Shown piece by piece: positions 11,483 to 53,294 of a DNA stretch of 64,000 nt. Source of the stretch: a virus (Duplodnaviria > Caudoviricetes); IMG/VR virus record IMGVR_UViG_3300028048_000055, positions 32,001 through 96,000 of that record; one strand, 5' to 3'. Under the pieces are notes generated by a model. That model worked only from the letters and a program-made list of their open reading frames with translations, was not told the DNA's origin and did no database searches. How positions within the stretch are numbered: the first letter of the stretch is position 1; every line of letters starts with the position of its first letter. The position numbers were made by a program, and so were the translations under genes.

Positions 11483-11521
11483 TAGTTTAGAGCAGTGGTT
11501 AGCTTATATTATAAATATTAT

Positions 11522-12280
11522 ATGGAATTAAAAATAAAACATATATGTAAATTTTGTAATATGGAGTTTACTACTGGGGCACAATTAGGAACACATATTT
11601 CTAAACAATGTCTTAAAAATCCAAATAGAGGAATACAAAAGAATTCTAAAATTTGGAAATGTTCAATTTGTGGTAATGATTTTCTTTCACGAAGAAGATT
11701 ACAACAGCATCGCAAAGATGAACATATTAACGAAATTAAAAGCAAATACTATGGGTATCATCCGATATTGAATATACCTTGTCAATTTTGCGGTTTAATT
11801 TGTAAAAGAGCTCGTGATTTAACAAGACATGAAAAATTTTGCAAAGAAAACCCAAATAAACAAATTTGGCAAGGACATAAAACTTCGGATGAAACTAAAA
11901 AGAAATTATCAGAAGCGGCTATTAAAAATCTTAGTGGTACACATTGTAATTGGTTAAATAAAAAGAAATCTTATGCTGAAGAATATTTTGAAACTATATT
12001 TACAAATGCTGAATCACAATATCAAGTTGGAAGATACGTATTAGATTTTGCATGGACTAAATCAAAAATTTATATTGAAGTTGATGGTGAACAGCATTAT
12101 ACTAAAGAAGGTATCGAACACGATAAGATTAGGACAGAATTTTTAATAGAAAATGGTTGGAGACTTTTAAAAAGAATTAGATGGTCTGAATTTCAAAAAC
12201 TTTCTAAAGCTGAACGTGAAAATGAAATTTATAGATTATTACAGACTATCAAAATTCAAGAAGAAACTAAAACGTTATGA
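11522..12280 (+). CDS. Zn-finger + NUMOD3-like + DUF559/Vsr-like putative homing endonuclease
   Basis: C2H2/CxxC repeats, HKTSDETKKKLS, LDFAW...IEVDGEQHY; TATAAATA-N4-ATG. Confidence 0.8.
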   Translation: MELKIKHICKFCNMEFTTGAQLGTHISKQCLKNPNRGIQKNSKIWKCSICGNDFLSRRRLQQHRKDEHINEIKSKYYGYHPILNIPCQFCGLICKRARDLTRHEKFCKENPNKQIWQGHKTSDETKKKLSEAAIKNLSGTHCNWLNKKKSYAEEYFETIFTNAESQYQVGRYVLDFAWTKSKIYIEVDGEQHYTKEGIEHDKIRTEFLIENGWRLLKRIRWSEFQKLSKAERENEIYRLLQTIKIQEETKTL

Positions 12281-12541: not shown

Positions 12542-12660
12542 TATAGCATAGGTAGTTCCTATTACTAAGCGTATAGCTCAACTGGTGGAGCAGTTACCGA
12601 AAGGTAAAAGGTTGTCGGTTCGAATCCGATTGTGCTTGCCATTCGATACTACCCGCTATA
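12542..12660 (+). ncRNA. UCCUAU scaffold copy 2 carrying an anticodon-less tRNA mimic (GAAA loop, CCA end)
   Basis: TATAGC-ATA-GGTAGT-TCCTAT...TAC-TACC-C-GCTATA enclosing tRNA-like 12567-12641. Confidence 0.8.
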
Positions 12661-13403: not shown

Positions 13404-14039
13404 ATGAATGAATATATATGTAAATTTTGCGGTAAGATTTGTAAAAACATAAATTCTTTAAAAAATCATGAAAGATTATGTAAATTAAATCCTAATAGAC
13501 AAATATCGCCATTTGTAAAATATAATGCAGAGCATGAAACAAGTTGGAATAAAGGGCTTACAAAAGAAAATGATGAAAGAGTTAAGCAAATGGCTGAAAC
13601 TATGAGTCAAAAAATAAGAGCAGGCCTAATACATAACTATGATCATCAAAAAGTATGGACAGAAGAACGTAGAAAAGCACAATCTGAAAGGAAAAAGAAA
13701 TTTTATGAAGAACACCCAGAAAAGCATCCTAATAGCTTAGTAGCTGGTGCACTTAATAAAATGACATATCCTGAAAAATTAGTTACTGAATATTTAAAAG
13801 AACATAATATAACAGCAGAACATAATTGGTATTTTAAAACAGAAAAATTTACAAGATATATAGATTTTTATATAGATGAATTAAAATTATTTATTGAAGT
13901 TGATGGAGAATATTGGCACAAAGATAAACAAAAAGATATTGATAAAGATAATGATGCATTAATGTATGGTTATAAAACATTAAGGTTAAAACCAAAAACA
14001 GTTATAACACAATTAAATGAATTTTTTAATATGGCATAG
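13404..14039 (+). CDS. Zn-finger + DUF559/Vsr-like putative homing endonuclease
   Basis: YICKFCGK...HERLC, WNKGLTKE, IDFY...IEVDGEYWH. Confidence 0.8.
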   Translation: MNEYICKFCGKICKNINSLKNHERLCKLNPNRQISPFVKYNAEHETSWNKGLTKENDERVKQMAETMSQKIRAGLIHNYDHQKVWTEERRKAQSERKKKFYEEHPEKHPNSLVAGALNKMTYPEKLVTEYLKEHNITAEHNWYFKTEKFTRYIDFYIDELKLFIEVDGEYWHKDKQKDIDKDNDALMYGYKTLRLKPKTVITQLNEFFNMA

Positions 14040-15904: not shown

Positions 15905-16507
15905 ATGACAGAATTACTGATTATCGCAAGTGTAATTACGGTTACAGTAATTCTTAGTTATTATTTCGGTATTCAGCTTTTATATAAGTATAGAAAAGGA
16001 ATAACGAAGATTCTTGGACTTATTACATTTATTTCTGTTATCGGATATGGAATGTATAAAGATTATCAAGACGAAAAAATTCTTGAAAATGTACTTACTG
16101 AAGTAACAACTGAAATTAATAGCACAGATAGAAGTATGTTAACTGATGATGGTTTTCATGAATTTGTGGAACATTTTGTTATGAAGAAAAACGACGTAAA
16201 TTTTAAAGTCGTTCCACAAATTGATACAGCAATTTTGAAAATCAATAAAGTCTACCAGAATGTACTTAATGACCCTGATTATAAGATTCTTATAACGAGC
16301 GCAAATGATTCGAAGTCACATTCGAAAAATTCTGCACATTATCGTGGTGAAGCAGTAGATATTCGTATCAAGAATATTGATCGACATTCGAAGAATGAAA
16401 TTATATCTACAGTTAAAGAAATTCTTGGAGATAGATTTTTCATATTGCATGAAGATCGAGGAAAACCCAATGAACATTTACATATTCAATTAAAAAATAA
16501 GGGTTGA
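15905..16507 (+). CDS. membrane-anchored peptidase M15-like Zn peptidase
   Basis: two N-terminal TM segments; SAHYRGEAVDIR and HLHIQ motifs. Confidence 0.75.
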   Translation: MTELLIIASVITVTVILSYYFGIQLLYKYRKGITKILGLITFISVIGYGMYKDYQDEKILENVLTEVTTEINSTDRSMLTDDGFHEFVEHFVMKKNDVNFKVVPQIDTAILKINKVYQNVLNDPDYKILITSANDSKSHSKNSAHYRGEAVDIRIKNIDRHSKNEIISTVKEILGDRFFILHEDRGKPNEHLHIQLKNKG

Positions 16508-16532
16508 CAAAGAGAATATAATTTACTATATT
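16504..16532 (+). promoter_or_regulatory. promoter of the scaffold/tRNA-mimic unit
   Basis: TTGACA-N17-TATATT. Confidence 0.75.
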
Positions 16533-16539
16533 TAACATC

Positions 16540-16608
16540 GTTAAAGCAAAGAATGTTCCTATTAATATCAAATTATTTTTAGCAGATGACAATACATTCC
16601 GCTTTAAC
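16540..16608 (+). ncRNA. UCCUAU scaffold copy 5
   Basis: GTTAAAGC-AAA-GAATGT-TCCTAT...TAC-ATTC-C-GCTTTAAC. Confidence 0.75.
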
Positions 16609-16612
16609 AATT

Positions 16613-16734
16613 CGACGAGTAGCTCAATTGGTAGAGCACATGTTTTTTATACCAACCGCTACTTGGCAAACTTGGTTCCTATTAATTATGGAATAGGTCC
16701 ATGGGGGTTGTAGGTTCGAGTCCTACCTTCCCGG
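16613..16734 (+). ncRNA. tRNA-like RNA with a circularly permuted UCCUAU scaffold (copy 6) in place of the anticodon loop
   Basis: D arm and T arm flank TACCAAC-C-GCTA-CT-TGGC-AAA-CTTGGT-TCCTAT. Confidence 0.65.
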
Positions 16735-16748
16735 TTATAAAAAATTTA

Positions 16749-16910
16749 TCGCTGAATGCTCTATCGTCTAGTGGTTTAGGACAGCCGGGGGTTAAACCGG
16801 TGAACAGTGGGTTCGAATCCCCTTAGAGGTAACTAAATATTGATTGCAGTCAATATATTCTTCAGCGAGAGGTATACTGATTGACGCCTGCAAACGTTGT
16901 GATGTATACC
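16749..16910 (+). ncRNA. tRNA-like module enclosed in a longer structured RNA
   Basis: TCGCTGAA/TTCAGCGA stem encloses a tRNA-like fold with an 8-nt loop; extra hairpins. Confidence 0.5.
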
Positions 16911-16941
16911 GGCGCTATTAAAAATATTTTAAAAAGAGGGG

Positions 16942-16970
16942 TTGACAAACCAAAAACTTTTTACTATATT
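16942..16970 (+). promoter_or_regulatory. promoter of tRNA block 3
   Basis: TTGACA-N17-TATATT. Confidence 0.75.
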
Positions 16971-17755: not shown

Positions 17756-17830
17756 GGGGGCAAAGGTTACTTTTCGCAACTTTTGCACAAAGAGTTCCTA
17801 ACTATATTGGTTCAATTCCAATAGCCTCCA
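17756..17830 (+). ncRNA. Ala-acceptor tRNA-like RNA resembling a tmRNA tRNA-like domain
   Basis: GGGGGC/GCCTCC-A with G3:U70 and a T arm; no D stem or canonical anticodon arm. Confidence 0.5.
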
Positions 17831-19951: not shown

Positions 19952-20071
19952 AATAGCAAAAGCGGTTCCTATAACCAGAGGAATAGCTTAGTTGGTTAGA
20001 GCAACGCAGCAATGCGGAGGCCGTCGGTTCGAGTCCGATTTCCCCTACCATCAAGTTTACTGCTCGCTATT
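19952..20071 (+). ncRNA. UCCUAU scaffold copy 7 carrying an anticodon-less tRNA mimic (GCAA loop, ACCA end)
   Basis: AATAGC-AAA-AGCGGT-TCCTAT...TAC-TGCT-C-GCTATT enclosing tRNA-like 19977-20050. Confidence 0.8.
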
Positions 20072-20566: not shown

Positions 20567-21331
20567 ATGAATTACAGAAACATATATTATAAGATAATTG
20601 AGAAAGCAAAAAACGAGGATAAAAATGGACACAGACAGTTAGGTTATTTTGAAAAACATCATATATTACCTAAGTCATTAGGCGGTAGTAATGATAAAAA
20701 TAATTTAGTTAAACTTACAGCACGTGAACATTTTATTTGTCATTGGCTACTTGTTAAAATGTATGATAAAGGAACTGATGAAAGAAATAAAATGCTATGT
20801 GCTCTTTGGCGAATGCGTTCAAATCCATTACAAAATCATATACGGTATACTAATGCTAGAACATATGAAAATTTAAGAATAGAATATTCAAAAATTATAA
20901 GTAATCAAATGCATATTATACAAATGGGTAAAAACAATTCACAATTTGGAACTAAATGGTATACAAATAGAAATACAGGAGAAAGTAAAAAATTTAAAGA
21001 AAAACCAAAAGAAGAATATTGGATTGAAGGTAGAAATTTGTTTCATGGCGAAAGCAGTGTATTAAAAATAAAATTAATAACATTACGACATACTGAAACT
21101 AAAGTGCCGCAAAAAAATTATTTAAAATCAGTTGATGATGCACATAAATTATGGGATGAGTTTCATTCTGGAACTTATGAAAAATTAGATGACTTTGCTA
21201 AAATACACAATAAAACTAGAAGTGCAATATTTGTAAAATTTAAAAGATATATACCAGCATTTAATACAGATAAAAAACGTAGTTGCAGAAGTTATAAATC
21301 AAATAATATATTAATTGGAAAATATGAATAA
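20567..21331 (+). CDS. HNH homing endonuclease (MobE-like)
   Basis: EKHHILPKSLGGSN...NLVKLTAREHFICHWLL. Confidence 0.85.
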   Translation: MNYRNIYYKIIEKAKNEDKNGHRQLGYFEKHHILPKSLGGSNDKNNLVKLTAREHFICHWLLVKMYDKGTDERNKMLCALWRMRSNPLQNHIRYTNARTYENLRIEYSKIISNQMHIIQMGKNNSQFGTKWYTNRNTGESKKFKEKPKEEYWIEGRNLFHGESSVLKIKLITLRHTETKVPQKNYLKSVDDAHKLWDEFHSGTYEKLDDFAKIHNKTRSAIFVKFKRYIPAFNTDKKRSCRSYKSNNILIGKYE

Positions 21332-21887: not shown

Positions 21888-22607
21888 ATGAATTACTTAG
21901 AATTAAATGATAAAGGTAAGCTCGGAAGTGATGAGCAAAAATTGGCCGACTATTTTGGAGTCGGTCATTATACTACATTTTATAAAAAGCATTTTTTACA
22001 AAATAAAATAAAACTCACTAAGGATGATTTTATTGCAGGCGTAATTCCAGTAATGTTTTGCGCTATGAAAAAACTTAACATTGATTATAAGCATGATGAT
22101 TATCCTGAACAGCTACAAAAATATCTTCATCGTAGAATTTGGGAATCGACTCTTGGTCGTATAAAAACTAGTGTCTTTAATGATTATCTATTTGGACCTG
22201 TTTTTATTAAACCAAAAGATAAATTAAAAAAGTTTACTGGTTTTGTTTTAAATTCAAGAGATGATTGGCTTCTTACTGAAGGCGCAGGCGATAGCACGAA
22301 AATTATCTGTTCAAAACCGGTAAAATGGGTTACAGAATATCGTATTCCTGTAATTAATGGCGTCGCAAGAGATTATTGTCATTATTTTGGAAATCCAGGT
22401 ATATTTGTAGATAAGGCTGTAATTCAAAATATGATAGGTGATTGGAAAGATTCTCCAAAAGCATATTGCTTGGATGTTGGAGTCTTAGATACTGGAGAAA
22501 CTGCATTAATAGAAGTTAATGATGCATTTAGCTGCGGTAGTTACTCAATGAGTGCTGAAACCTATGGTGATTTACTGACAACAAGATGGAATGAGTTAAA
22601 AGGTTGA
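21888..22607 (+). CDS. ATP-grasp domain protein (DUF4343/R2K-like)
   Basis: VFIKP...KKFTG, EYR, LDVG...LIEVND motifs. Confidence 0.8.
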   Translation: MNYLELNDKGKLGSDEQKLADYFGVGHYTTFYKKHFLQNKIKLTKDDFIAGVIPVMFCAMKKLNIDYKHDDYPEQLQKYLHRRIWESTLGRIKTSVFNDYLFGPVFIKPKDKLKKFTGFVLNSRDDWLLTEGAGDSTKIICSKPVKWVTEYRIPVINGVARDYCHYFGNPGIFVDKAVIQNMIGDWKDSPKAYCLDVGVLDTGETALIEVNDAFSCGSYSMSAETYGDLLTTRWNELKG

Positions 22608-29884: not shown

Positions 29885-30718
29885 ATGAAGTTAAAATACA
29901 TATGTCAATATTGTAATAAAGAATTAACTAGGCCATGTGCATTAGCTATACATCAACGTGTTTGTAAATTAAATCCAAATAGACAACCGTTAATAAATAA
30001 TGGTAATTTAAATATAGCTAAATATCATAAACCTAAGGCTCCATATGGAACATGGAAATGTAAGTGGTGTAATAATGACATTATTTTTGATACTAGAAAA
30101 CAATTAAAAGAACATTTAAAAGAAAAACATCCAGAAAAACGTAATGCATGGAATAAAGGCTTAACAAAAGAAACTGATGAACGTGTTAAACAATTTGGTC
30201 AAACATATTCTAAGCGAATAAAAAATAAAGAAATATCTGCACTTTTTGCAGGCAAAAAACATACAGATGAATGGCGAAAAAATCATTCAGAATTACAAAA
30301 AGAAAGATATAAAGGAATATCGATATATGCAACCGTAAGGGAAAAACGAAAATCTTATCCTGAACAATATTTTGATAAAATATTTAGTGATGCAGAAAAA
30401 CAATATCATGTAGATAGTTATTTTTTAGATTATGCATGGCCATATATTAAATTATATATTGAAGTTGATGGTGAACAACATTATACTGAATCTGGTTTAC
30501 TTCATGATAAAGAAAGAGCAGAAATATTAAGTAAATTAGGTTGGAATTGTATTACGCGTATTAGATGGAAAAATTATATAAAATTAACAACTAATGAAAA
30601 AGAAAATTTTATAAATAATTTATTAAATAAAATTAATATTTTTAAAAATGAAACTATAGGAAGCAAAACAGACTGCCGGCTCCTATATACGGTGTACAAC
30701 GTCGAAGATAAGGTCTAG
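29885..30718 (+). CDS. Zn-finger + DUF559/Vsr-like putative homing endonuclease
   Basis: paralog of 11522: KSYPEQYF...LDYAW...IEVDGEQHY. Confidence 0.8.
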   Translation: MKLKYICQYCNKELTRPCALAIHQRVCKLNPNRQPLINNGNLNIAKYHKPKAPYGTWKCKWCNNDIIFDTRKQLKEHLKEKHPEKRNAWNKGLTKETDERVKQFGQTYSKRIKNKEISALFAGKKHTDEWRKNHSELQKERYKGISIYATVREKRKSYPEQYFDKIFSDAEKQYHVDSYFLDYAWPYIKLYIEVDGEQHYTESGLLHDKERAEILSKLGWNCITRIRWKNYIKLTTNEKENFINNLLNKINIFKNETIGSKTDCRLLYTVYNVEDKV

Positions 30719-34883: not shown

Positions 34884-34939
34884 GGATTTACAAAAGTAAA
34901 ATCATTTACTATATTTAATTTCACAAAATGAATAAAAAC

Positions 34940-34989
34940 GCATAGAGAGTTCCTATGAAATGGTTCTAGGAAAACTGAATACTCTCCGC
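34940..34989 (+). promoter_or_regulatory. UCCUAU scaffold copy 11 in the 5' UTR of the 650-aa gene
   Basis: GC-ATA-GAGAGT-TCCTAT...TAC-TCTC-C-GC between promoter 34887-34915 and the AAAGGA SD. Confidence 0.75.
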
Positions 34990-35006
34990 TAAAAAGGAAA
35001 CAAAAA

Positions 35007-36959
35007 ATGTCTAAGAACTTTAATGTAAAGCTCATCACCATGTTTAACGTCGCTCCGGTTGTTGAAAAGTCAGAACAGCTGTCTTTCGAGGAAGTCAACC
35101 AGGAAGCATCTAAGTATGGATATATTATCCATCCTGATTGTTGTTCTAAAATCGTGCTTGATTGGATTAAGCAGGAAGCGAAGACTAATTATAACGCTAC
35201 CTTCTACAAGCAGTGGTCTGATATTACATCTAAGACCCGTTTTGAGCTTTTGATTGACCAGATCCGTCATTATGCTACTACTTATGGTACTGATTATACT
35301 GCTGGTCAGGGTTATGTTCCGAATGATACTCCGAATGTAGAAATTCCGTTTGAAAAGTTTAAGGTTATTATGCCGGCAACTATCAAGGAAATCTATGACC
35401 GTGCTGTTGGTATGTTTACCAGTGGTATCGCACTCAATGAAGATACTGTCAATATTTTGACTGACTTCGTTTCCTATCATATCAAGCATTCTAAGTTTGA
35501 ATTCGATGTTGATAAGGTTAAGAATAAGGAAGTTCAGGTCAAGCTTTGTGATGAATTTGGTTTGACTCCGAAGGATCCGTTTGCACTTTTGCGTTACCTT
35601 GTTTACAAGGCAACTGGTAAGCTCATGCTTATTAAGGACCGTAATACTATCAAGGCTTTAAAGGAAAACCATGATAAGTATACTCTTACTAACCTTACTC
35701 AGGAACAGAAGATTGCTCTTGCATCTATCTTCTACCGTTTCAAGCCGTTGTTCCTCGCTATGAAGTCTACTTCTGGTGCTTCTAAGTCTATGACTACTGA
35801 AGCTTTCCGTAAGGCTGCAAAGTCAATCGGTGTTAATGTTGCTAAGTCTGCAACTAATGCAAGTGTTGTCAACGAAATTCGTCGTTTGGCAAAGACTTAT
35901 CATAAGCCGTTTAAGTCTGGTCTTTGGGAAACTGTTCTTTGCGAAAAGAAGGATCTCGAACAGGTAAAGGCTCATCTTGGTGATATTACCAACTTCAAGA
36001 AGATTACTCTTATGCAGGGCATCATGGCTAAGCTCCAGAAGTGCAATGGTAAGATGTATGTTATCCGTAATGGTAAGATGTGGGTTGATGCCGATTACAA
36101 GCCGAAGAGCGATAACACTTCTTATTTGATGTTTCTTTATAACATTCTTGAACAGTCTATCGTTGATTCTATCAAGGGTAAGGCTGGTTACGTTGTTGTT
36201 CCGAAGAATGTTATTTTCGCAGTTCCGACTTCTGAAAAGAACTTTATCGGTAACTATCCATTTGGTACTTCCGTAGAACTTAGCAACACTAACAATGTTG
36301 TTGGTATCTACTGGCGTAATGAATGGAAGACTCGTGACTTTGACCTTCACATGTATGATCTTGCTGGTAATAGCTATGGTTGGAACTCCAGCTATACTAA
36401 CGGTAAGAACACTGTCATCTATTCTGGTGATATGACTAATGCTGAACCGGAAGCTACTGAGATGTTCTACTTCTCTAAGGAAATCGGTTCTGGTAAGATC
36501 AGTGTTAACCAGTTTAATGGTGAAACTAAGTCTCAGTTCAAGCTCTTCGTAGCAACTGAAGATGTTCGTAATAAGCTTAAGGGTGTTGATACTTACCGTC
36601 GTCAGAATGGTTGTGTCATGTGTGACCCGAACAATGTTAAGGCTGAATTCATGATTCCGGTCGATAATGAACGTCAGAAGGAATGTGCATTGATTACCGA
36701 TAACAAGGTATATCTCATGGACCTCACCTCTGGTAATGGTCGTGTTCCGGACCGTAAGTATACCAAGGTTTACCTTGAACAGCTCGAAATCAAGTGCCGT
36801 TCGTTCATTAGCTTGAACGATATCCTTGATAAGGCTGGATTTACTTTGGTCAATGAATTGCCGGAAGTTGCAGAAAATGAAGCTAAGCCGGAAGTAGTGC
36901 TTGATTTGACTAATCCGTCTAAGGATTCTCTTATCAGCCTCTTCAGTGAAGCAAAGTAA
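35007..36959 (+). CDS. 650-aa protein with TerD-like C-terminal domain; candidate RNA-binding partner of the scaffold RNAs
   Basis: GIYW...DFDLH...IYSGDMT...ATE TerD-like motif; strongly biased codon usage. Confidence 0.6.
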   Translation: MSKNFNVKLITMFNVAPVVEKSEQLSFEEVNQEASKYGYIIHPDCCSKIVLDWIKQEAKTNYNATFYKQWSDITSKTRFELLIDQIRHYATTYGTDYTAGQGYVPNDTPNVEIPFEKFKVIMPATIKEIYDRAVGMFTSGIALNEDTVNILTDFVSYHIKHSKFEFDVDKVKNKEVQVKLCDEFGLTPKDPFALLRYLVYKATGKLMLIKDRNTIKALKENHDKYTLTNLTQEQKIALASIFYRFKPLFLAMKSTSGASKSMTTEAFRKAAKSIGVNVAKSATNASVVNEIRRLAKTYHKPFKSGLWETVLCEKKDLEQVKAHLGDITNFKKITLMQGIMAKLQKCNGKMYVIRNGKMWVDADYKPKSDNTSYLMFLYNILEQSIVDSIKGKAGYVVVPKNVIFAVPTSEKNFIGNYPFGTSVELSNTNNVVGIYWRNEWKTRDFDLHMYDLAGNSYGWNSSYTNGKNTVIYSGDMTNAEPEATEMFYFSKEIGSGKISVNQFNGETKSQFKLFVATEDVRNKLKGVDTYRRQNGCVMCDPNNVKAEFMIPVDNERQKECALITDNKVYLMDLTSGNGRVPDRKYTKVYLEQLEIKCRSFISLNDILDKAGFTLVNELPEVAENEAKPEVVLDLTNPSKDSLISLFSEAK

Positions 36960-49909: not shown

Positions 49910-50260
49910 TTGAAGTCTATTTCCTCGGAGCGAAGACCAACTCAATGGAATTGTCGGTAGAGGGATAGCCGTTTCGCATGGAAATAGTCATGCGGGTTAA
50001 AAACTATGCAGTTTTTAATAACGAATCGGCAAATTGTCAAATTGACATGTCACGGTTAACGAAAATCTATTATCGAAGTATAATTATAGCAGAATTATAC
50101 ACTTAGCCGCCCTTGGTAGTATTAGGATGTAGCTGGAATACAGGAGGACCGATCCATAAGCCTAATATATAAATCCCGATGGTCGAAGACGATAGTCGTC
50201 TTCTAGCCTATCTTCCTGGATAGGCTCAAAGTCTCTGACGATAATTTTGACGTATGAGTA
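49910..50260 (+). ncRNA. unidentified ~350-nt structured non-coding region
   Basis: no long ORF, GC above background, many short inverted repeats. Confidence 0.45.
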
Positions 50261-50300: not shown

Positions 50301-53294
50301 ATGAACTCAATTCTTGATATTGCTGCACAATTCTTAAGTGAAAATACAAATCCCATAATGGAATCTTTCCATGATGAAAGTGTAGACCAAGCTAAGAAAT
50401 ACATAGAAAATAATTATGACGAATTATATAAGTTTAAGGGTTTTCAAAAGTTTGCACCGATAAAACCCAGTAATTTAAAAGAATTTGCCAATACTAAAGT
50501 TAGAGATATTCAAAGATTGATTATCAGTCCTTTTATCTATGCTCCGAGAAACGAGCTTAAATGGATGAATTCATATGTCTTAGGTCTTACAAGAATTATG
50601 TATAAGGACCTTTTATATGATAAACCGAAATTTAAAAAGAATTTACTTCAAGATTTAAAAAAGATATATTTAACTGCAGTATATGCTAGACAAGACGGTA
50701 TCGCTAATGGTGATAAGTCATTAATGATGGATAAGAACATGAATAATCTTTCATTCAATGAACTGAAAACAAAATTCATGCCATTATTTAATCATTATTA
50801 TGATATCTATAAAAAGAATAAACAAGAATATATTAATATCCATACACGTAATGCTACAACAAATACAAATCTTGTAGCAAATACAGCAATAAAATATGAT
50901 GGTGCAGGTAACGAATTAAACGATACTGAATATGAGGAACCGTATCATGAAAATTCTTTCAAGATAGGAAAATATAATGCATGTTTAATTCCTAACCATA
51001 AAGCTGCAGCTACATGGAACCGCTTTACTAATAAGACAAGTGATTCTAACGGGTGTAACTGGTGTATCACAATACCGTCTACAGATGATCACTGGGAAAG
51101 CTATGAATGCGGTAAAACTAGAACAGTCTATTTCTGTTGGACAGATAATTTCCTTAATTTAAACATAAAAGATTTTAATGACGGTTCTGCCCCGTATAAT
51201 GAATGGGGTAAGAGTCTCATGTGTGTAATGGTTAATGATTCAGATGACATTAATAAATTCGTTTGTCAAGTAACATCTCGATATAACCATTGTAATGGTA
51301 AAGGTGAAAACGCATCATCTTCTTTAGGTTTCGGTGATTATTTCTGTGGTGATCCAGATAGTGAAGGTCTTGCTGCAAATCTCGCACAGATATTAGGCTG
51401 TTCTGCAGAAGATATTCAGGAAAAGTTTTTATTTGACGGGGATATGGATGCGTCCAGTGAAAAAGGAGAACAGATATATGAAGATATAGCAGAAAGAATA
51501 AATTATTATTTAGAGAGACATAATTTTAATAATTTAGAAGTCGATACGATATTACCTGATAATTATGTATTAGCTACTTATTCCGATAAGGATTATACAG
51601 TAAATGTATTATTAAAAAATAATACATTAGTACCTAATTTCATATATACTTATATTTATCCGATTTATATAGGCAAGACTATAGATGATTGTATTTTTGA
51701 AGTAATAGATGCAACTGCTGAATATAGTGATCGTACTAAAAATATAGCATATGGTCCAAATGCAGATACTTATTTTGATCATGACATGGCAGAGATAATT
51801 CCAATTTATAAATTAAATAGAAGTTATTCGTCAGAGTATAATGATGAAAAATATAAAACAAAACATAGAATCGTCGCTTTAGCACCATATCATAATCATG
51901 AATATAATTTGTTTGATCTGGATAAAAAAGAATTCATGTTAAATGATGAATTCTTTATTCAGTCAGTATTTGAAAAAGATGGTCAGTTAAATTTAGCAAT
52001 AACAACCGGTGAAAATAGTGCTGAAAGAAATATCAGCAATGTATGTGTTTATAATATTGACACAAAGAAAACATATTATATAAAGAATGAATATTTAACT
52101 GATTTACAAGCAAGACTTGGTGATAACTATTTAAGATTTAATAATGCATATATGTATGCAAATGAAAGTAATGTTATATTATTTGACTTACTTAATATGA
52201 AACCTATAGAAGGTAATTATACTTATGTTCTTGAATCTCGTATTGCTTTTAAAGATTATTTAATTACACTAGATGAAAGTGCTAAAAATTTTGATTATAC
52301 TATATTTTATAAAGGTAACGTAATAGATACATTCCCAGCAAGAACACATATATATTGTCCAAAGGATAATACAAGAAGTACAGATGTATTCATAATTAAT
52401 TATAATAATGATTCCGAAAGCAGAATCTATTATAAAGGTAAATTAATTTATGCAAGCAATAGTGAAACCGATAATATTAAGACTTCTAGAGGCCCATTTG
52501 TAATCGGAAATGTATTATATGTCCGGCTTAAAGAAGAAAAAAATATAACAAATGATTATTCAGCACAAGCATTTAAGCTTATCGATATTAATACACAAAA
52601 AGTAATTACAGAAGATATTTGCATGGATGGAGAATATGCATTAGAAACAGCTGTTCGAAAAGATATACCTGTACTTGCTTTTAAAGTTAATCCAAAAACA
52701 AATGCTATCGAGTATGTCGTTATAGATAATAATGGAAAAATTAATAATTTAAATAACGAAGAAGATGAATTTATTGATTATAATATATTAAAGAGTGGAG
52801 ATAGCACTGTAATTGCATCGGATTCAGAAATTCGTATTAATGATGGCGATGCTAATATTACGATGCAATATATTAAATTCTATTCAAATGCAAAGATAAA
52901 ATTATATAATCCGGATGGTTCTATTTTCTATAAGCCGAATGATGATGACTTCCAGGGATTAAATTATGTATCATTAGCCCCATTAGGTTATGGATTCTGG
53001 CTGTTAACAAGAAAGATAAAATATTCTCGTATAGGATTACTTGAAATACACGATATAATCGATAAAAATGGTAAGCTTATTATCGGTAATACAGACAGTT
53101 CCCCGGTCAGCATTAATATTATTGATAATTTTAACGAAAATGAAGACCTATTAATAACAGCAACAAAATATGCCAAGGATATTGATTCTCGTGACTATAG
53201 TATTTCTAAAAACGGCGAACTTAAAAAATTGCCATACGGTTGGCAAAGCGCAAATGAAAACTATATTCAGAATCTTGCCGCATATTTATTATAG
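50301..53294 (+). CDS. large late protein, paralog of 42178
   Basis: WCIT...YFC...WGKSLMCVMVN...SRYNH; C-terminal AAYLL. Confidence 0.75.
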   Translation: MNSILDIAAQFLSENTNPIMESFHDESVDQAKKYIENNYDELYKFKGFQKFAPIKPSNLKEFANTKVRDIQRLIISPFIYAPRNELKWMNSYVLGLTRIMYKDLLYDKPKFKKNLLQDLKKIYLTAVYARQDGIANGDKSLMMDKNMNNLSFNELKTKFMPLFNHYYDIYKKNKQEYINIHTRNATTNTNLVANTAIKYDGAGNELNDTEYEEPYHENSFKIGKYNACLIPNHKAAATWNRFTNKTSDSNGCNWCITIPSTDDHWESYECGKTRTVYFCWTDNFLNLNIKDFNDGSAPYNEWGKSLMCVMVNDSDDINKFVCQVTSRYNHCNGKGENASSSLGFGDYFCGDPDSEGLAANLAQILGCSAEDIQEKFLFDGDMDASSEKGEQIYEDIAERINYYLERHNFNNLEVDTILPDNYVLATYSDKDYTVNVLLKNNTLVPNFIYTYIYPIYIGKTIDDCIFEVIDATAEYSDRTKNIAYGPNADTYFDHDMAEIIPIYKLNRSYSSEYNDEKYKTKHRIVALAPYHNHEYNLFDLDKKEFMLNDEFFIQSVFEKDGQLNLAITTGENSAERNISNVCVYNIDTKKTYYIKNEYLTDLQARLGDNYLRFNNAYMYANESNVILFDLLNMKPIEGNYTYVLESRIAFKDYLITLDESAKNFDYTIFYKGNVIDTFPARTHIYCPKDNTRSTDVFIINYNNDSESRIYYKGKLIYASNSETDNIKTSRGPFVIGNVLYVRLKEEKNITNDYSAQAFKLIDINTQKVITEDICMDGEYALETAVRKDIPVLAFKVNPKTNAIEYVVIDNNGKINNLNNEEDEFIDYNILKSGDSTVIASDSEIRINDGDANITMQYIKFYSNAKIKLYNPDGSIFYKPNDDDFQGLNYVSLAPLGYGFWLLTRKIKYSRIGLLEIHDIIDKNGKLIIGNTDSSPVSINIIDNFNENEDLLITATKYAKDIDSRDYSISKNGELKKLPYGWQSANENYIQNLAAYLL

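What the first reader, a model, noticed from the sequence alone, without database searches (positions are those of the whole stretch)
16613..16734. Inside-out copy: circularly permuted scaffold inserted into a tRNA anticodon arm
The scaffold's 3' strand (TACCAAC-C-GCTA) comes before its 5' strand (TGGC-AAA-CTTGGT-TCCTAT), and the whole is flanked by a tRNA 5' half (D arm, CATG) and 3' half (CATG, T arm). Conservation of the motif under permutation supports function as a folded RNA structure rather than a DNA repeat.
Basis: partly seen in the sequence, partly recalled or inferred. Interest (0 to 1): 0.72.

Follow-up and report, generated by a model that had tools for sequence, protein, structure and literature searches.

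The report
tRNA-shaped RNA carrying a protein-docking hairpin
This stretch encodes a small RNA shaped like a tRNA whose anticodon loop is replaced by a conserved hairpin, and the same design recurs in many phages and bacteria beside one uncharacterised protein gene, so it is probably part of an undescribed RNA-protein particle and not a working tRNA.

Summary
At 16613-16734 a tRNA body (acceptor, D and T arms; Rfam tRNA 37 bits) carries, where the anticodon loop should be, the window's repeated "handle" motif in reversed strand order: UA-P2'-C-GC-loop-GC-AAA-P2-UUCCUAU. This pattern occurs twice in the window and in none of 100 shuffles.

It is not a one-off. I found 25 distinct copies in phage contigs and 53 in bacterial chromosomes, mostly Chryseobacterium. 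Their stems covary strongly (0 of 500 shuffles reach the observed values).

It is not a tRNA with an intron. The linker in front of the handle is variable and gives no anticodon loop, and the anticodon stem is only 3-5 bp.

The RNA is a circular permutant of normal-order handle RNAs that carry a rearranged tRNA with a sealed acceptor end.

The handle travels with one protein family, ORF 35007-36959 here (helical repeats plus a TerD-like domain; no Ro60 signature found). In bacteria, 50 of 55 such RNAs lie 115-512 nt upstream of that gene, against 0 of 65 chance pattern matches.

The window's own copy is the least well formed: two acceptor-stem mismatches and a much more stable competing fold.

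Function is inferred only: a Y-RNA-like particle that displays a tRNA mimic. This scan noted the handle/TerD-partner family before, on other DNA.

The parts
16504..16532 (+). Promoter-like site (TTGACA, 17 nt, TATATT). It would start transcription at about 16540.
   Evidence: 11 of 12 consensus matches. The next such site is at 16942-16970.
16540..16608 (+). Plain handle RNA in normal order: P1 GUUAAAGC/GCUUUAAC, AAA/C internal loop, P2 GAAUG/CAUUC, UUCCUAU, short cargo. It ends 4 nt before the tRNA-like RNA.
   Evidence: A normal-order handle lies directly upstream of the tRNA-like RNA in 18 of 25 phage copies.
16613..16734 (+). The whole tRNA-shaped RNA with the permuted handle in place of the anticodon loop (called T3 in this report).
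   Evidence: Rfam tRNA 37 bits. Own covariance model R1 gives 88.6 bits; ordinary tRNAs of the window score below 50.
16613..16642 (+). tRNA 5' half: acceptor 5' strand CGACGAG, U8 A9, D arm, A26, anticodon-stem 5' strand CAUG.
   Evidence: U8, A14 and G18G19 are invariant in the family.
16643..16649 (+). A/U-rich 5' linker UUUUUUA. It looks like a Lys(UUU) anticodon loop, but the linker is variable in relatives.
   Evidence: linkers of 3 to 10 nt with no U33/R37 pattern.
16650..16676 (+). Permuted handle hairpin: UA, P2' CCAAC, bulged C, P1 GC, loop UACUUG, P1 GC, AAA bulge, P2 CUUGG, closing U.
16676..16682 (+). Invariant UUCCUAU tract.
   Evidence: Invariant in alignments A2, A3 and A5 and in normal-order copies.
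16683..16699 (+). 3' linker. CCUAUU (16678-16683) can pair with AAUAGG (16692-16697).
   Evidence: A comparable UCCUA/UAGGA pairing is possible in about two thirds of relatives; this was judged by eye, not tested statistically.
16700..16734 (+). tRNA 3' half: anticodon-stem 3' strand CAUG, variable region, T arm, acceptor 3' strand CUUCCCG, discriminator G. No CCA is encoded.
   Evidence: The 15:48 pair is A:U here.
17756..17830 (+). Second permuted handle of the window (hairpin 17768-17800), set in an acceptor/T-arm minihelix with G3:U70.
   Evidence: Near-identical in relative L070.
34939..34990 (+). Normal-order handle in the 5' leader of the partner gene.
   Evidence: The same position is occupied in many homologous loci.
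35007..36959 (+). Candidate partner protein of 650 aa: helical-repeat N-terminal part plus a TerD-like beta-sandwich.
   Evidence: for the protein. for the link to the RNA.

Best explanation
16613-16734 encodes a non-decoding, tRNA-shaped small RNA. The arm that would hold the anticodon ends in a conserved bulged hairpin, the "handle". The handle is the likely docking site for the phage's helical-repeat/TerD-like protein (ORF 35007-36959).

The gene is a circular permutant of the ordinary handle RNAs. In those, the RNA ends lie in helix P1 and the cargo sits at the far end. Here P1 is closed by a loop and the RNA ends lie in the tRNA acceptor stem.

The RNA is probably transcribed from the promoter-like site at 16504, together with a plain handle RNA directly upstream. 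Because its ends are tRNA ends, the tRNA-processing enzymes probably cut it out; that cut would also free the upstream handle RNA.

The resulting particle would display a tRNA look-alike on the protein, much as YrlA does on Ro60.

Shown here: the fold (by covariation), the absence of an anticodon loop, the permutation relationship, and the gene linkage to the protein. Inferred: physical binding, processing, and any cellular role. This particular copy may be partly decayed.
For: Structure:
- RNAalifold on 15 MAFFT-aligned copies predicts the acceptor, D and T stems plus the permuted hairpin.
- In 25 distinct phage copies 96.8% of cells are paired, against 78% in shuffles; 18 of 25 pairs have changes on both sides; 0 of 500 shuffles reach the observed values.
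- An independent set of 53 bacterial copies gives 97.5% paired and again 0 of 500 shuffles.

tRNA shape:
- U8, A14, G18G19 and the T loop are kept.
- The tertiary 15:48 pair covaries: G:C in 13 copies, A:U in 11, one exception.

Not a decoder:
- The 5' linker is variable and the anticodon stem is 3-5 bp.

Permutation:
- Normal-order handle RNAs with T arm, sealed acceptor hairpin and D arm as cargo lie upstream of the partner gene in other phages.
- Rotated in silico, they align end to end with this RNA.

Link to the protein:
- Handles lie directly upstream of homologues, on the same strand only.
- 8 of 10 viral records with this RNA encode the protein, including 4 of 4 records that are at least 90% complete.
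- In bacteria 50 of 55 such RNAs have the gene 115-512 nt downstream, against 0 of 65 chance matches to the same pattern.

Local context:
- Promoter-like site at 16504-16532.
- A plain handle directly upstream in 18 of 25 phage copies.
- The 3' trailer resembles that of the array's ordinary tRNAs, and no CCA is encoded.
Against: - No expression, processing or binding data exist.
- The window's copy has two acceptor-stem mismatches that no other phage copy has.
- A competing fold of this copy is 10.9 kcal/mol more stable than the consensus fold, so this copy may misfold or be decaying.
- The partner's fold gave only a TerD-like match and generic helical-repeat matches; nothing shows that it binds RNA.
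- Alignments A3 and A5 were fitted to the model and therefore lean towards its structure.
- In this phage the RNA lies 18 kb from the protein gene.
Confidence: 0.7

Rival explanations
1. This is a real tRNA-Lys(UUU) gene interrupted at position 37/38 by a 50-nt intron. The intron would be cut out and the halves joined, for example by the phage's RtcB ligase.
For: - CAUG-UUUUUUA reads as stem, U33, UUU, A37.
- No other tRNA-Lys(UUU) is present in the 165-kb contig.
- An RtcB gene lies in the same contig.
Against: - Positional orthologues and other relatives carry unrelated linkers (for example AAAUU, UAU, UUAAGAUU) that cannot give an anticodon loop.
- Several relatives have only a 3-bp anticodon stem.
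- The same RNA exists with a sealed acceptor end.
- No group I intron model matches, and 50 nt is far too short for one.
- ARAGORN in intron mode does not call it.
- The phage mostly carries tRNAs for G/C-ending codons: Lys CUU, Gln CUG.
Confidence: 0.04
2. The family is real, but this copy is a decaying, non-functional remnant.
For: - It has the only acceptor-stem mismatches among 25 phage copies.
- It has the lowest model score among its close relatives, 88.6 bits against 96-108 bits for its four positional orthologues.
- A competing fold is 10.9 kcal/mol more stable, which is unique to this copy.
Against: - All invariant handle nucleotides are intact, as are the D and T arms, the 15:48 pair and the promoter.
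- The P2 pair next to the bulge is unpaired in 27 of 53 bacterial copies, so the C.C there is normal.
- tRNA folds are often missed by energy minimisation.
Confidence: 0.15
3. The tRNA-like body is only punctuation. It recruits RNase P and RNase Z so that the neighbouring plain handle RNA is released, and it has no role of its own.
For: - A plain handle RNA ends 3-10 nt upstream in 18 of 25 phage copies.
- tRNA-like punctuation is an established way of cutting transcripts; this point rests on general knowledge (mitochondrial transcripts, MALAT1/mascRNA).
Against: - The body carries its own complete, covarying handle. Punctuation would not need one.
- In bacteria it is the RNA placed directly before the partner gene.
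- Arrays of handle RNAs exist without any tRNA between them.
Confidence: 0.08
4. This is a chance resemblance or a DNA-level repeat (recombination or protein-binding site on DNA).
For: The conserved words are short, and the window is AT-rich.
Against: - 0 of 100 shuffles give the pattern even once.
- Compensatory changes keep the pairing while the sequence changes.
- There are no copies on the opposite strand in 76 loci.
Confidence: 0.01

Closest known systems
YrlA-type Y RNAs with Ro60/Rsr (Rfam RF02553; Chen et al. 2014, PMC4201824)
   Same: - A small RNA made of a protein-binding stem plus a tRNA-like module that lacks an anticodon.
- The 15:48 pair covaries in the same way (PMC4201824).
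- The RNA genes lie beside the protein gene, often several per locus.
- The normal-order relatives with a sealed acceptor end have the YrlA topology.
   Different: - No Rfam Y RNA model matches.
- The conserved motif is UUCCUA with an AWA/C internal loop, not GGUCCGA or GNCGAAN0-1G (PMC4201824).
- The partner has no TROVE signature and no Ro60 match in the fold searches; it has a TerD-like domain.
- The RNA studied here has its ends in the acceptor stem, the reverse of YrlA.
Circularly permuted RNA genes: two-piece (permuted) tmRNA, Rfam RF04321
   Same: - The same folded RNA is encoded in rotated gene order.
- A tRNA-like part is involved.
- One such gene lies near a copy of this RNA in L015.
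   Different: - tmRNA has a tag reading frame and acts on ribosomes.
- Permuted tmRNA is cut into two pieces.
- No similarity of sequence or model to the RNA studied here.
Intron-containing and permuted tRNA genes (archaeal and eukaryal bulge-helix-bulge introns; Cyanidioschyzon permuted tRNAs)
   Same: Extra RNA sits in the anticodon arm of a cloverleaf, and an RtcB-type ligase is encoded in the genome.
   Different: No anticodon loop can be restored, and the insert is a conserved structured module that also exists outside tRNA bodies.
tRNA-like punctuation and processing elements (mascRNA of MALAT1; mitochondrial tRNA punctuation)
   Same: A tRNA-shaped element abuts another non-coding RNA, so RNase P cleavage would define the neighbour's 3' end.
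   Different: Here the tRNA-like element carries its own conserved protein-docking hairpin.

Membership tests
tRNA (Rfam RF00005) | Cloverleaf with acceptor, D and T arms and the elbow tertiary signature (U8, A14, G18G19, T loop, 15:48 pair) | tested here: met
   37 bits against a gathering score of 29. Stems covary. The 15:48 pair covaries. This copy has two acceptor mismatches.
tRNA (Rfam RF00005) | 5-bp anticodon stem closed by a 7-nt loop with U33, an anticodon and R37 | tested here: not met
   The loop is replaced by linker, handle hairpin and linker (50 nt here). Linkers are variable and stems are 3-5 bp in relatives.
Intron-bearing tRNA gene | Removing the insert leaves a canonical anticodon loop, and this holds across orthologues | tested here: not met
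   Only the window's copy happens to read U-UUU-A.
Intron-bearing tRNA gene | Group I intron (the bacterial and phage type) in the anticodon loop | tested here: not met
   No Rfam intron model matches at E up to 1 in 16500-16900. The insert is 50 nt.
Intron-bearing tRNA gene | Bulge-helix-bulge motif at both exon-intron junctions | not tested
   No formal search was run. The junctions are A/U-rich single strands as read by eye.
Y RNA / YrlA (RF02553 and relatives) | Match to the family's covariance model, and the Ro60-binding motif | tested here: not met
   cmscan at E up to 1 over 16500-16900 gives only tRNA matches. The motif differs from the one given in PMC4201824.
Y RNA / YrlA (RF02553 and relatives) | Partner protein with a TROVE domain (Ro60/Rsr) | tested here: not met
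   No Pfam family matches ORF 35007. No PDB sequence match at E up to 1. No TROVE match in the 165-kb contig, which is only about 40% of a genome.
Ro60 fold for the partner protein | HEAT-repeat ring plus vWA domain | tested here: inconclusive
   Ro60 is absent from the Foldseek and VIA lists for the whole model and for the N-terminal model. The helical part gives only weak, generic HEAT/ARM-like matches.
TerD domain (C-terminal part of the partner) | TerD beta-sandwich fold | tested here: met
   VIA Z 8.5, rmsd 3.3 over 130 residues to 2qz7. Foldseek E 4e-4 to 3ibz. Pfam TerD itself was not matched at E up to 0.01.
Handle RNA with helical/TerD partner (not in Rfam 15; no paper found; noted before by this scan) | P1 ending in GC, AWA bulge opposite a single C, 4-5 bp covarying P2 closed by A-U, invariant UCCUA | tested here: met
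   All of these are present at 16650-16682 in reversed strand order.
Handle RNA with helical/TerD partner (not in Rfam 15; no paper found; noted before by this scan) | Occurs together with the partner gene | tested here: met
   The same window holds ORF 35007 with a handle in its leader.

The most novel reading that the evidence does not exclude
The open-ended form is a chargeable tRNA mimic tethered to the helical/TerD protein. Its free acceptor end would receive CCA and, in some lineages, an amino acid. Supporting hints: G3:U70, the alanine identity pair, is present in 20 of 53 bacterial copies, and the window's second permuted copy is a minihelix with G3:U70. If so, a widespread and undescribed particle of phages and bacteria would hold an aminoacylated tRNA look-alike away from the ribosome, either as a substrate or as a decoy for enzymes or toxins that act on tRNA ends.
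Probability: 0.12. Interest if true: 0.88.

Novelty: new variant of a known kind. Interest (0 to 1): 0.68.

Why it matters
- Annotation: gene finders can mistake these RNAs for odd or intron-bearing tRNAs (Rfam's tRNA model matches them), or miss them altogether (ARAGORN missed this one).
- Structure: the permutation is an unusually clean natural experiment. The same fold is encoded with its ends in two different helices, which shows that the folded RNA, not the gene order, is under selection. It also fixes which end of the handle faces the cargo.
- Scope: the link to one uncharacterised protein family (more than 1,500 homologues) holds in giant rumen phages, in phages of about 47-59 kb, and in the chromosomes of dozens of cultured Chryseobacterium species. 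This points to a widespread RNA-protein system that is absent from Rfam and Pfam and that can now be tested in culturable bacteria.
- Biology: it adds a candidate second tRNA-mimic particle beside Ro60/Y RNA, in phages that invest heavily in tRNA supply.

Tried and rejected
- Exact or near-exact copies of the two handle strands elsewhere in the window: none. The family is recognisable only by structure plus the short UUCCUA word.
- Folding the insert alone: not more stable than shuffled sequence, z = -0.28. Folding the whole RNA by energy alone gives a non-cloverleaf fold.
- Rfam: only the tRNA model matches.
- The first, loose pattern scan of viral contigs returned mostly chance matches and had to be filtered by P2 pairing.
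- Partner protein: nothing in Pfam or PHROGs; nothing in PDB by sequence; the ESM Atlas gave only unnamed viral clusters and a weak TerD lead; the N-terminal domain modelled alone gave no convincing fold match. Ro60 did not appear in any of these lists.
- No TROVE match in the contig.
- Literature searches for this motif, for phage tRNA mimics and for structured RNAs of huge phages found nothing relevant. The 2026 preprint on three bacterial tRNA-mimic families concerns other RNAs: skipping-rope, DUF2693-FD and salivarius-1.
- The Lys(UUU)-with-intron reading was considered and rejected.

Full report
**What is there.** The window is part of a 165-kb contig of an uncultured phage (about 40% complete). 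It carries 38 or more tRNA genes. Rfam's tRNA model matches 16613-16734 at 37 bits, with a 50-nt insert where the anticodon loop should be. Read directly, the stretch consists of:
- a tRNA 5' half, ending in the stem strand CAUG;
- the linker UUUUUUA;
- UA-CCAAC-C-GC, the loop UACUUG, then GC-AAA-CUUGG-UUCCUAU;
- a small hairpin;
- CAUG and a tRNA 3' half.

The middle part is the window's repeated motif with its 3' strand placed before its 5' strand. In normal order the motif is P1 ending in GC, an AWA bulge, a 5-bp P2, UUCCUAU, cargo, UA, P2', a bulged C, and P1'. It occurs at about 12409, 12556, 12682, 14044, 16556, 19966, 20380, 29628, 29734 and 34950, with compensatory P2 changes. The permuted pattern matches twice in the window (16650 and 17768) and never in 100 shuffles.

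**It recurs and covaries.** A pattern scan of viral contigs, filtered for P2 pairing, gave many loci with the same layout: tRNA 5' half, permuted handle, tRNA 3' half. Rfam's tRNA model calls them as tRNAs of 110-118 nt.
- RNAalifold on a MAFFT alignment of 15 copies predicts the acceptor, D and T stems and the permuted hairpin, including an A-U pair that closes P2.
- A covariance model built from that alignment scores the window's copy at 88.6 bits and the ordinary tRNAs below 50 bits.
- The model finds 29 copies (25 distinct) in the viral loci held.
- On these copies 96.8% of cells are paired, against 78% after shuffling. Eighteen of 25 pairs have changes on both sides. No shuffle out of 500, and no slid register, comes close.
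- Positional orthologues exist in four related contigs: L070 9978-10092, L097 8506-8622, L040 8852-8962 and L044 529-640.

**Bacteria have it too.** The stricter pattern also hit bacterial genomes. Most of the titled records are Chryseobacterium species. Others are Tenacibaculum, Epilithonimonas, Soonwooa, and assemblies labelled Desulfobulbaceae, Gammaproteobacteria and cyanobacteria. These copies were not used to build the model. They score 73-104 bits and give 97.5% paired cells, 14 pairs with changes on both sides, and 0 of 500 shuffles reaching the observed values. In this set the P2 pair next to the bulge is unpaired in 27 of 53 copies. The C.C at that position in the window's copy is therefore normal for the family.

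**It is tRNA-shaped but not a tRNA.** U8, A14, G18G19 and the T loop are kept, and the tertiary 15:48 pair covaries: G:C in 13 copies, A:U in 11, one exception. The region between the anticodon stem and the handle is different. It is a variable A/U-rich linker of 3 to 10 nt with no U33/R37 pattern. The stem itself is 3 to 5 bp, and the first base pair and the discriminator vary freely.
- The reading of UUUUUUA as a Lys(UUU) loop is a coincidence of this copy.
- No intron model matches, and ARAGORN in intron mode does not call the gene.
- The contig encodes RtcB and has no other tRNA-Lys(UUU).
- I therefore keep splicing as a rival, at low odds.

**The permutation relationship.** In other phages, arrays of up to eight normal-order handle RNAs lie directly upstream of homologues of ORF 35007. 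Some of these carry as cargo a T arm, then a closed acceptor hairpin, then a D arm: a rearranged tRNA joined to the handle through its anticodon stem. I cut five of these in the acceptor loop, joined their P1 ends, and aligned them with the RNAs of the present kind. They align collinearly from end to end. The RNA at 16613 is thus the same folded object with its 5' and 3' ends moved from P1 to the acceptor stem.

A third layout also exists in this window, at 12567-12641 and 19977-20047. There a normal-order tRNA body is joined to the handle through its acceptor end. It has a GNRA tetraloop (GAAA, GCAA) where the anticodon loop should be, and an encoded NCCA that the ordinary tRNAs lack. All three layouts lack an anticodon.

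**The partner protein.** ORF 35007-36959 has a handle in its leader.
- It has more than 1,500 homologues.
- It has no Pfam, PHROG or PDB sequence match.
- Its model (pLDDT 80) has a C-terminal TerD-like beta-sandwich (Foldseek E 4e-4; VIA Z 8.5) and a helical-repeat N-terminal part with only weak, generic matches.
- Ro60 appeared in none of the fold-search lists, and the contig has no TROVE match.

The link between RNA and protein is strong:
- Strict handles lie upstream, on the same strand, in about 34 of 76 homologous viral loci, and none lie on the other strand.
- Eight of ten viral records that hold this RNA encode the protein, including four of four that are at least 90% complete.
- In bacteria 50 of 55 such RNAs have the gene on the same strand, starting 115-512 nt downstream. 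None of the 65 chance matches to the same pattern does. Three of the five exceptions sit at the edge of the fetched DNA.

**Local context.** A promoter-like site at 16504-16532 would start transcription at the plain handle RNA (16540-16608). That RNA ends 4 nt before the tRNA-like RNA. The same pairing of a plain handle with the tRNA-like RNA is seen in 18 of 25 phage copies. No CCA is encoded, and the 3' trailer resembles that of the neighbouring ordinary tRNAs. Excision by RNase P and a 3' endonuclease is therefore a reasonable inference; it was not shown.

**This copy is the weakest of its kind.** Its A3.C70 and C4.C69 are the only acceptor mismatches in the phage set; the orthologues read CGGCGAG/CUCGCCG. 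Its consensus fold lies 10.9 kcal/mol above a competing fold, in which the 5' half pairs with the handle's 3' strand and loop. The gap is 0-5 kcal/mol for all the other copies. It may be decaying. All invariant handle and elbow nucleotides are nevertheless intact.

**Comparison with what is known.** The closest system is Ro60 with YrlA: a protein-binding stem plus a tRNA-like module, encoded beside the protein (PMC4201824). Membership fails on the RNA model, on the motif and on the protein, so this RNA works like a Y RNA at most by analogy. Rfam 15 holds no model for the handle, and I found no paper describing it. Earlier notes of this scan describe the same handle/TerD-partner family on other genomes and in this one. 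Those notes gave me the word "handle" and the Y RNA lead, which I then tested.

New here, as far as I could see:
- the demonstration that the inside-out copy is a circular permutant of the sealed-acceptor form;
- its recurrence in 25 phage and 53 bacterial copies;
- its fixed place just upstream of the partner gene in bacterial chromosomes.

**Verdict.** This is a real, conserved, structured RNA. It is a tRNA mimic on a docking hairpin, not an interrupted tRNA. Its function is still unknown.

Noticed in passing
window 16757-16831: A further tRNA-like element in the same transcription unit. It scores 25 bits on Rfam's tRNA model (below the gathering score of 29) and has an 8-nt loop GGGUUAAA. 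Hairpins follow at about 16837-16856 and 16871-16910. The stretch 16747-16920 does not align with relative L097.
   Followed up: partly
window 17756-17830: The second permuted handle sits in an acceptor/T-arm minihelix with G3:U70 and discriminator A. The element is nearly identical in L070, and a similar one is in L040.
   Followed up: partly
window 12567-12641 and 19977-20047: tRNA bodies enclosed by normal-order handles. They have GNRA tetraloops (GAAA, GCAA) in place of the anticodon loop and an encoded NCCA before the handle's 3' strand. The array's ordinary tRNAs encode no CCA.
   Followed up: partly
alignment A5 (bacterial loci L211-L326), pair 3:70: G3:U70, the alanine identity pair, occurs in 20 of 53 bacterial copies of the tRNA-like RNA. 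These may all belong to one lineage (Chryseobacterium); this was not checked. It would allow charging by AlaRS without an anticodon.
   Followed up: no
window 16616-16665: In this copy only, the acceptor/D-arm 5' half (GAGUAGC ... UUGGUA) is complementary to the handle's 3' strand and loop (UACCAA ... GCUACUU). This gives a fold 10.9 kcal/mol more stable than the consensus fold. It could be chance, decay or a switch.
   Followed up: partly
G000:C1:17116-18177 (outside the window, upstream): RtcB RNA ligase gene in the phage contig (147 bits).
   Followed up: no
window 50072-50181: cow-rumen-2 RNA (Rfam RF02947, 88 bits), just upstream of the 997-aa ORF at 50301-53294.
   Followed up: no
window 11495-12280, 13404-14039, 29885-30718, 20567-21331: Free-standing endonuclease-like genes inside the tRNA array: C2H2 zinc fingers plus DUF559 (three genes), and one with an HNH domain. 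Handle copies lie within about 150 nt of three of them: 12409, 14044 and 29734.
   Followed up: no
window 21888-22607: ATP-grasp protein of the R2K clade (PF18299, E 3e-37) directly after a tRNA block.
   Followed up: no
window, 3' flanks of the 38 ARAGORN tRNAs: Almost every ordinary tRNA is followed by UA directly after the discriminator (UAAAA, UAG, UAU). This may be a shared 3'-processing signal.
   Followed up: no
L015 4386-4638: A circularly permuted tmRNA gene (RF04321, 80 bits) lies 2 kb from that phage's copy of the tRNA-like handle RNA.
   Followed up: no
L165 2819-2932: A weaker match to the model (59.9 bits) lies directly upstream of a distant (31% identity) homologue of the partner gene. 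It suggests divergent handle variants that the strict pattern misses.
   Followed up: no
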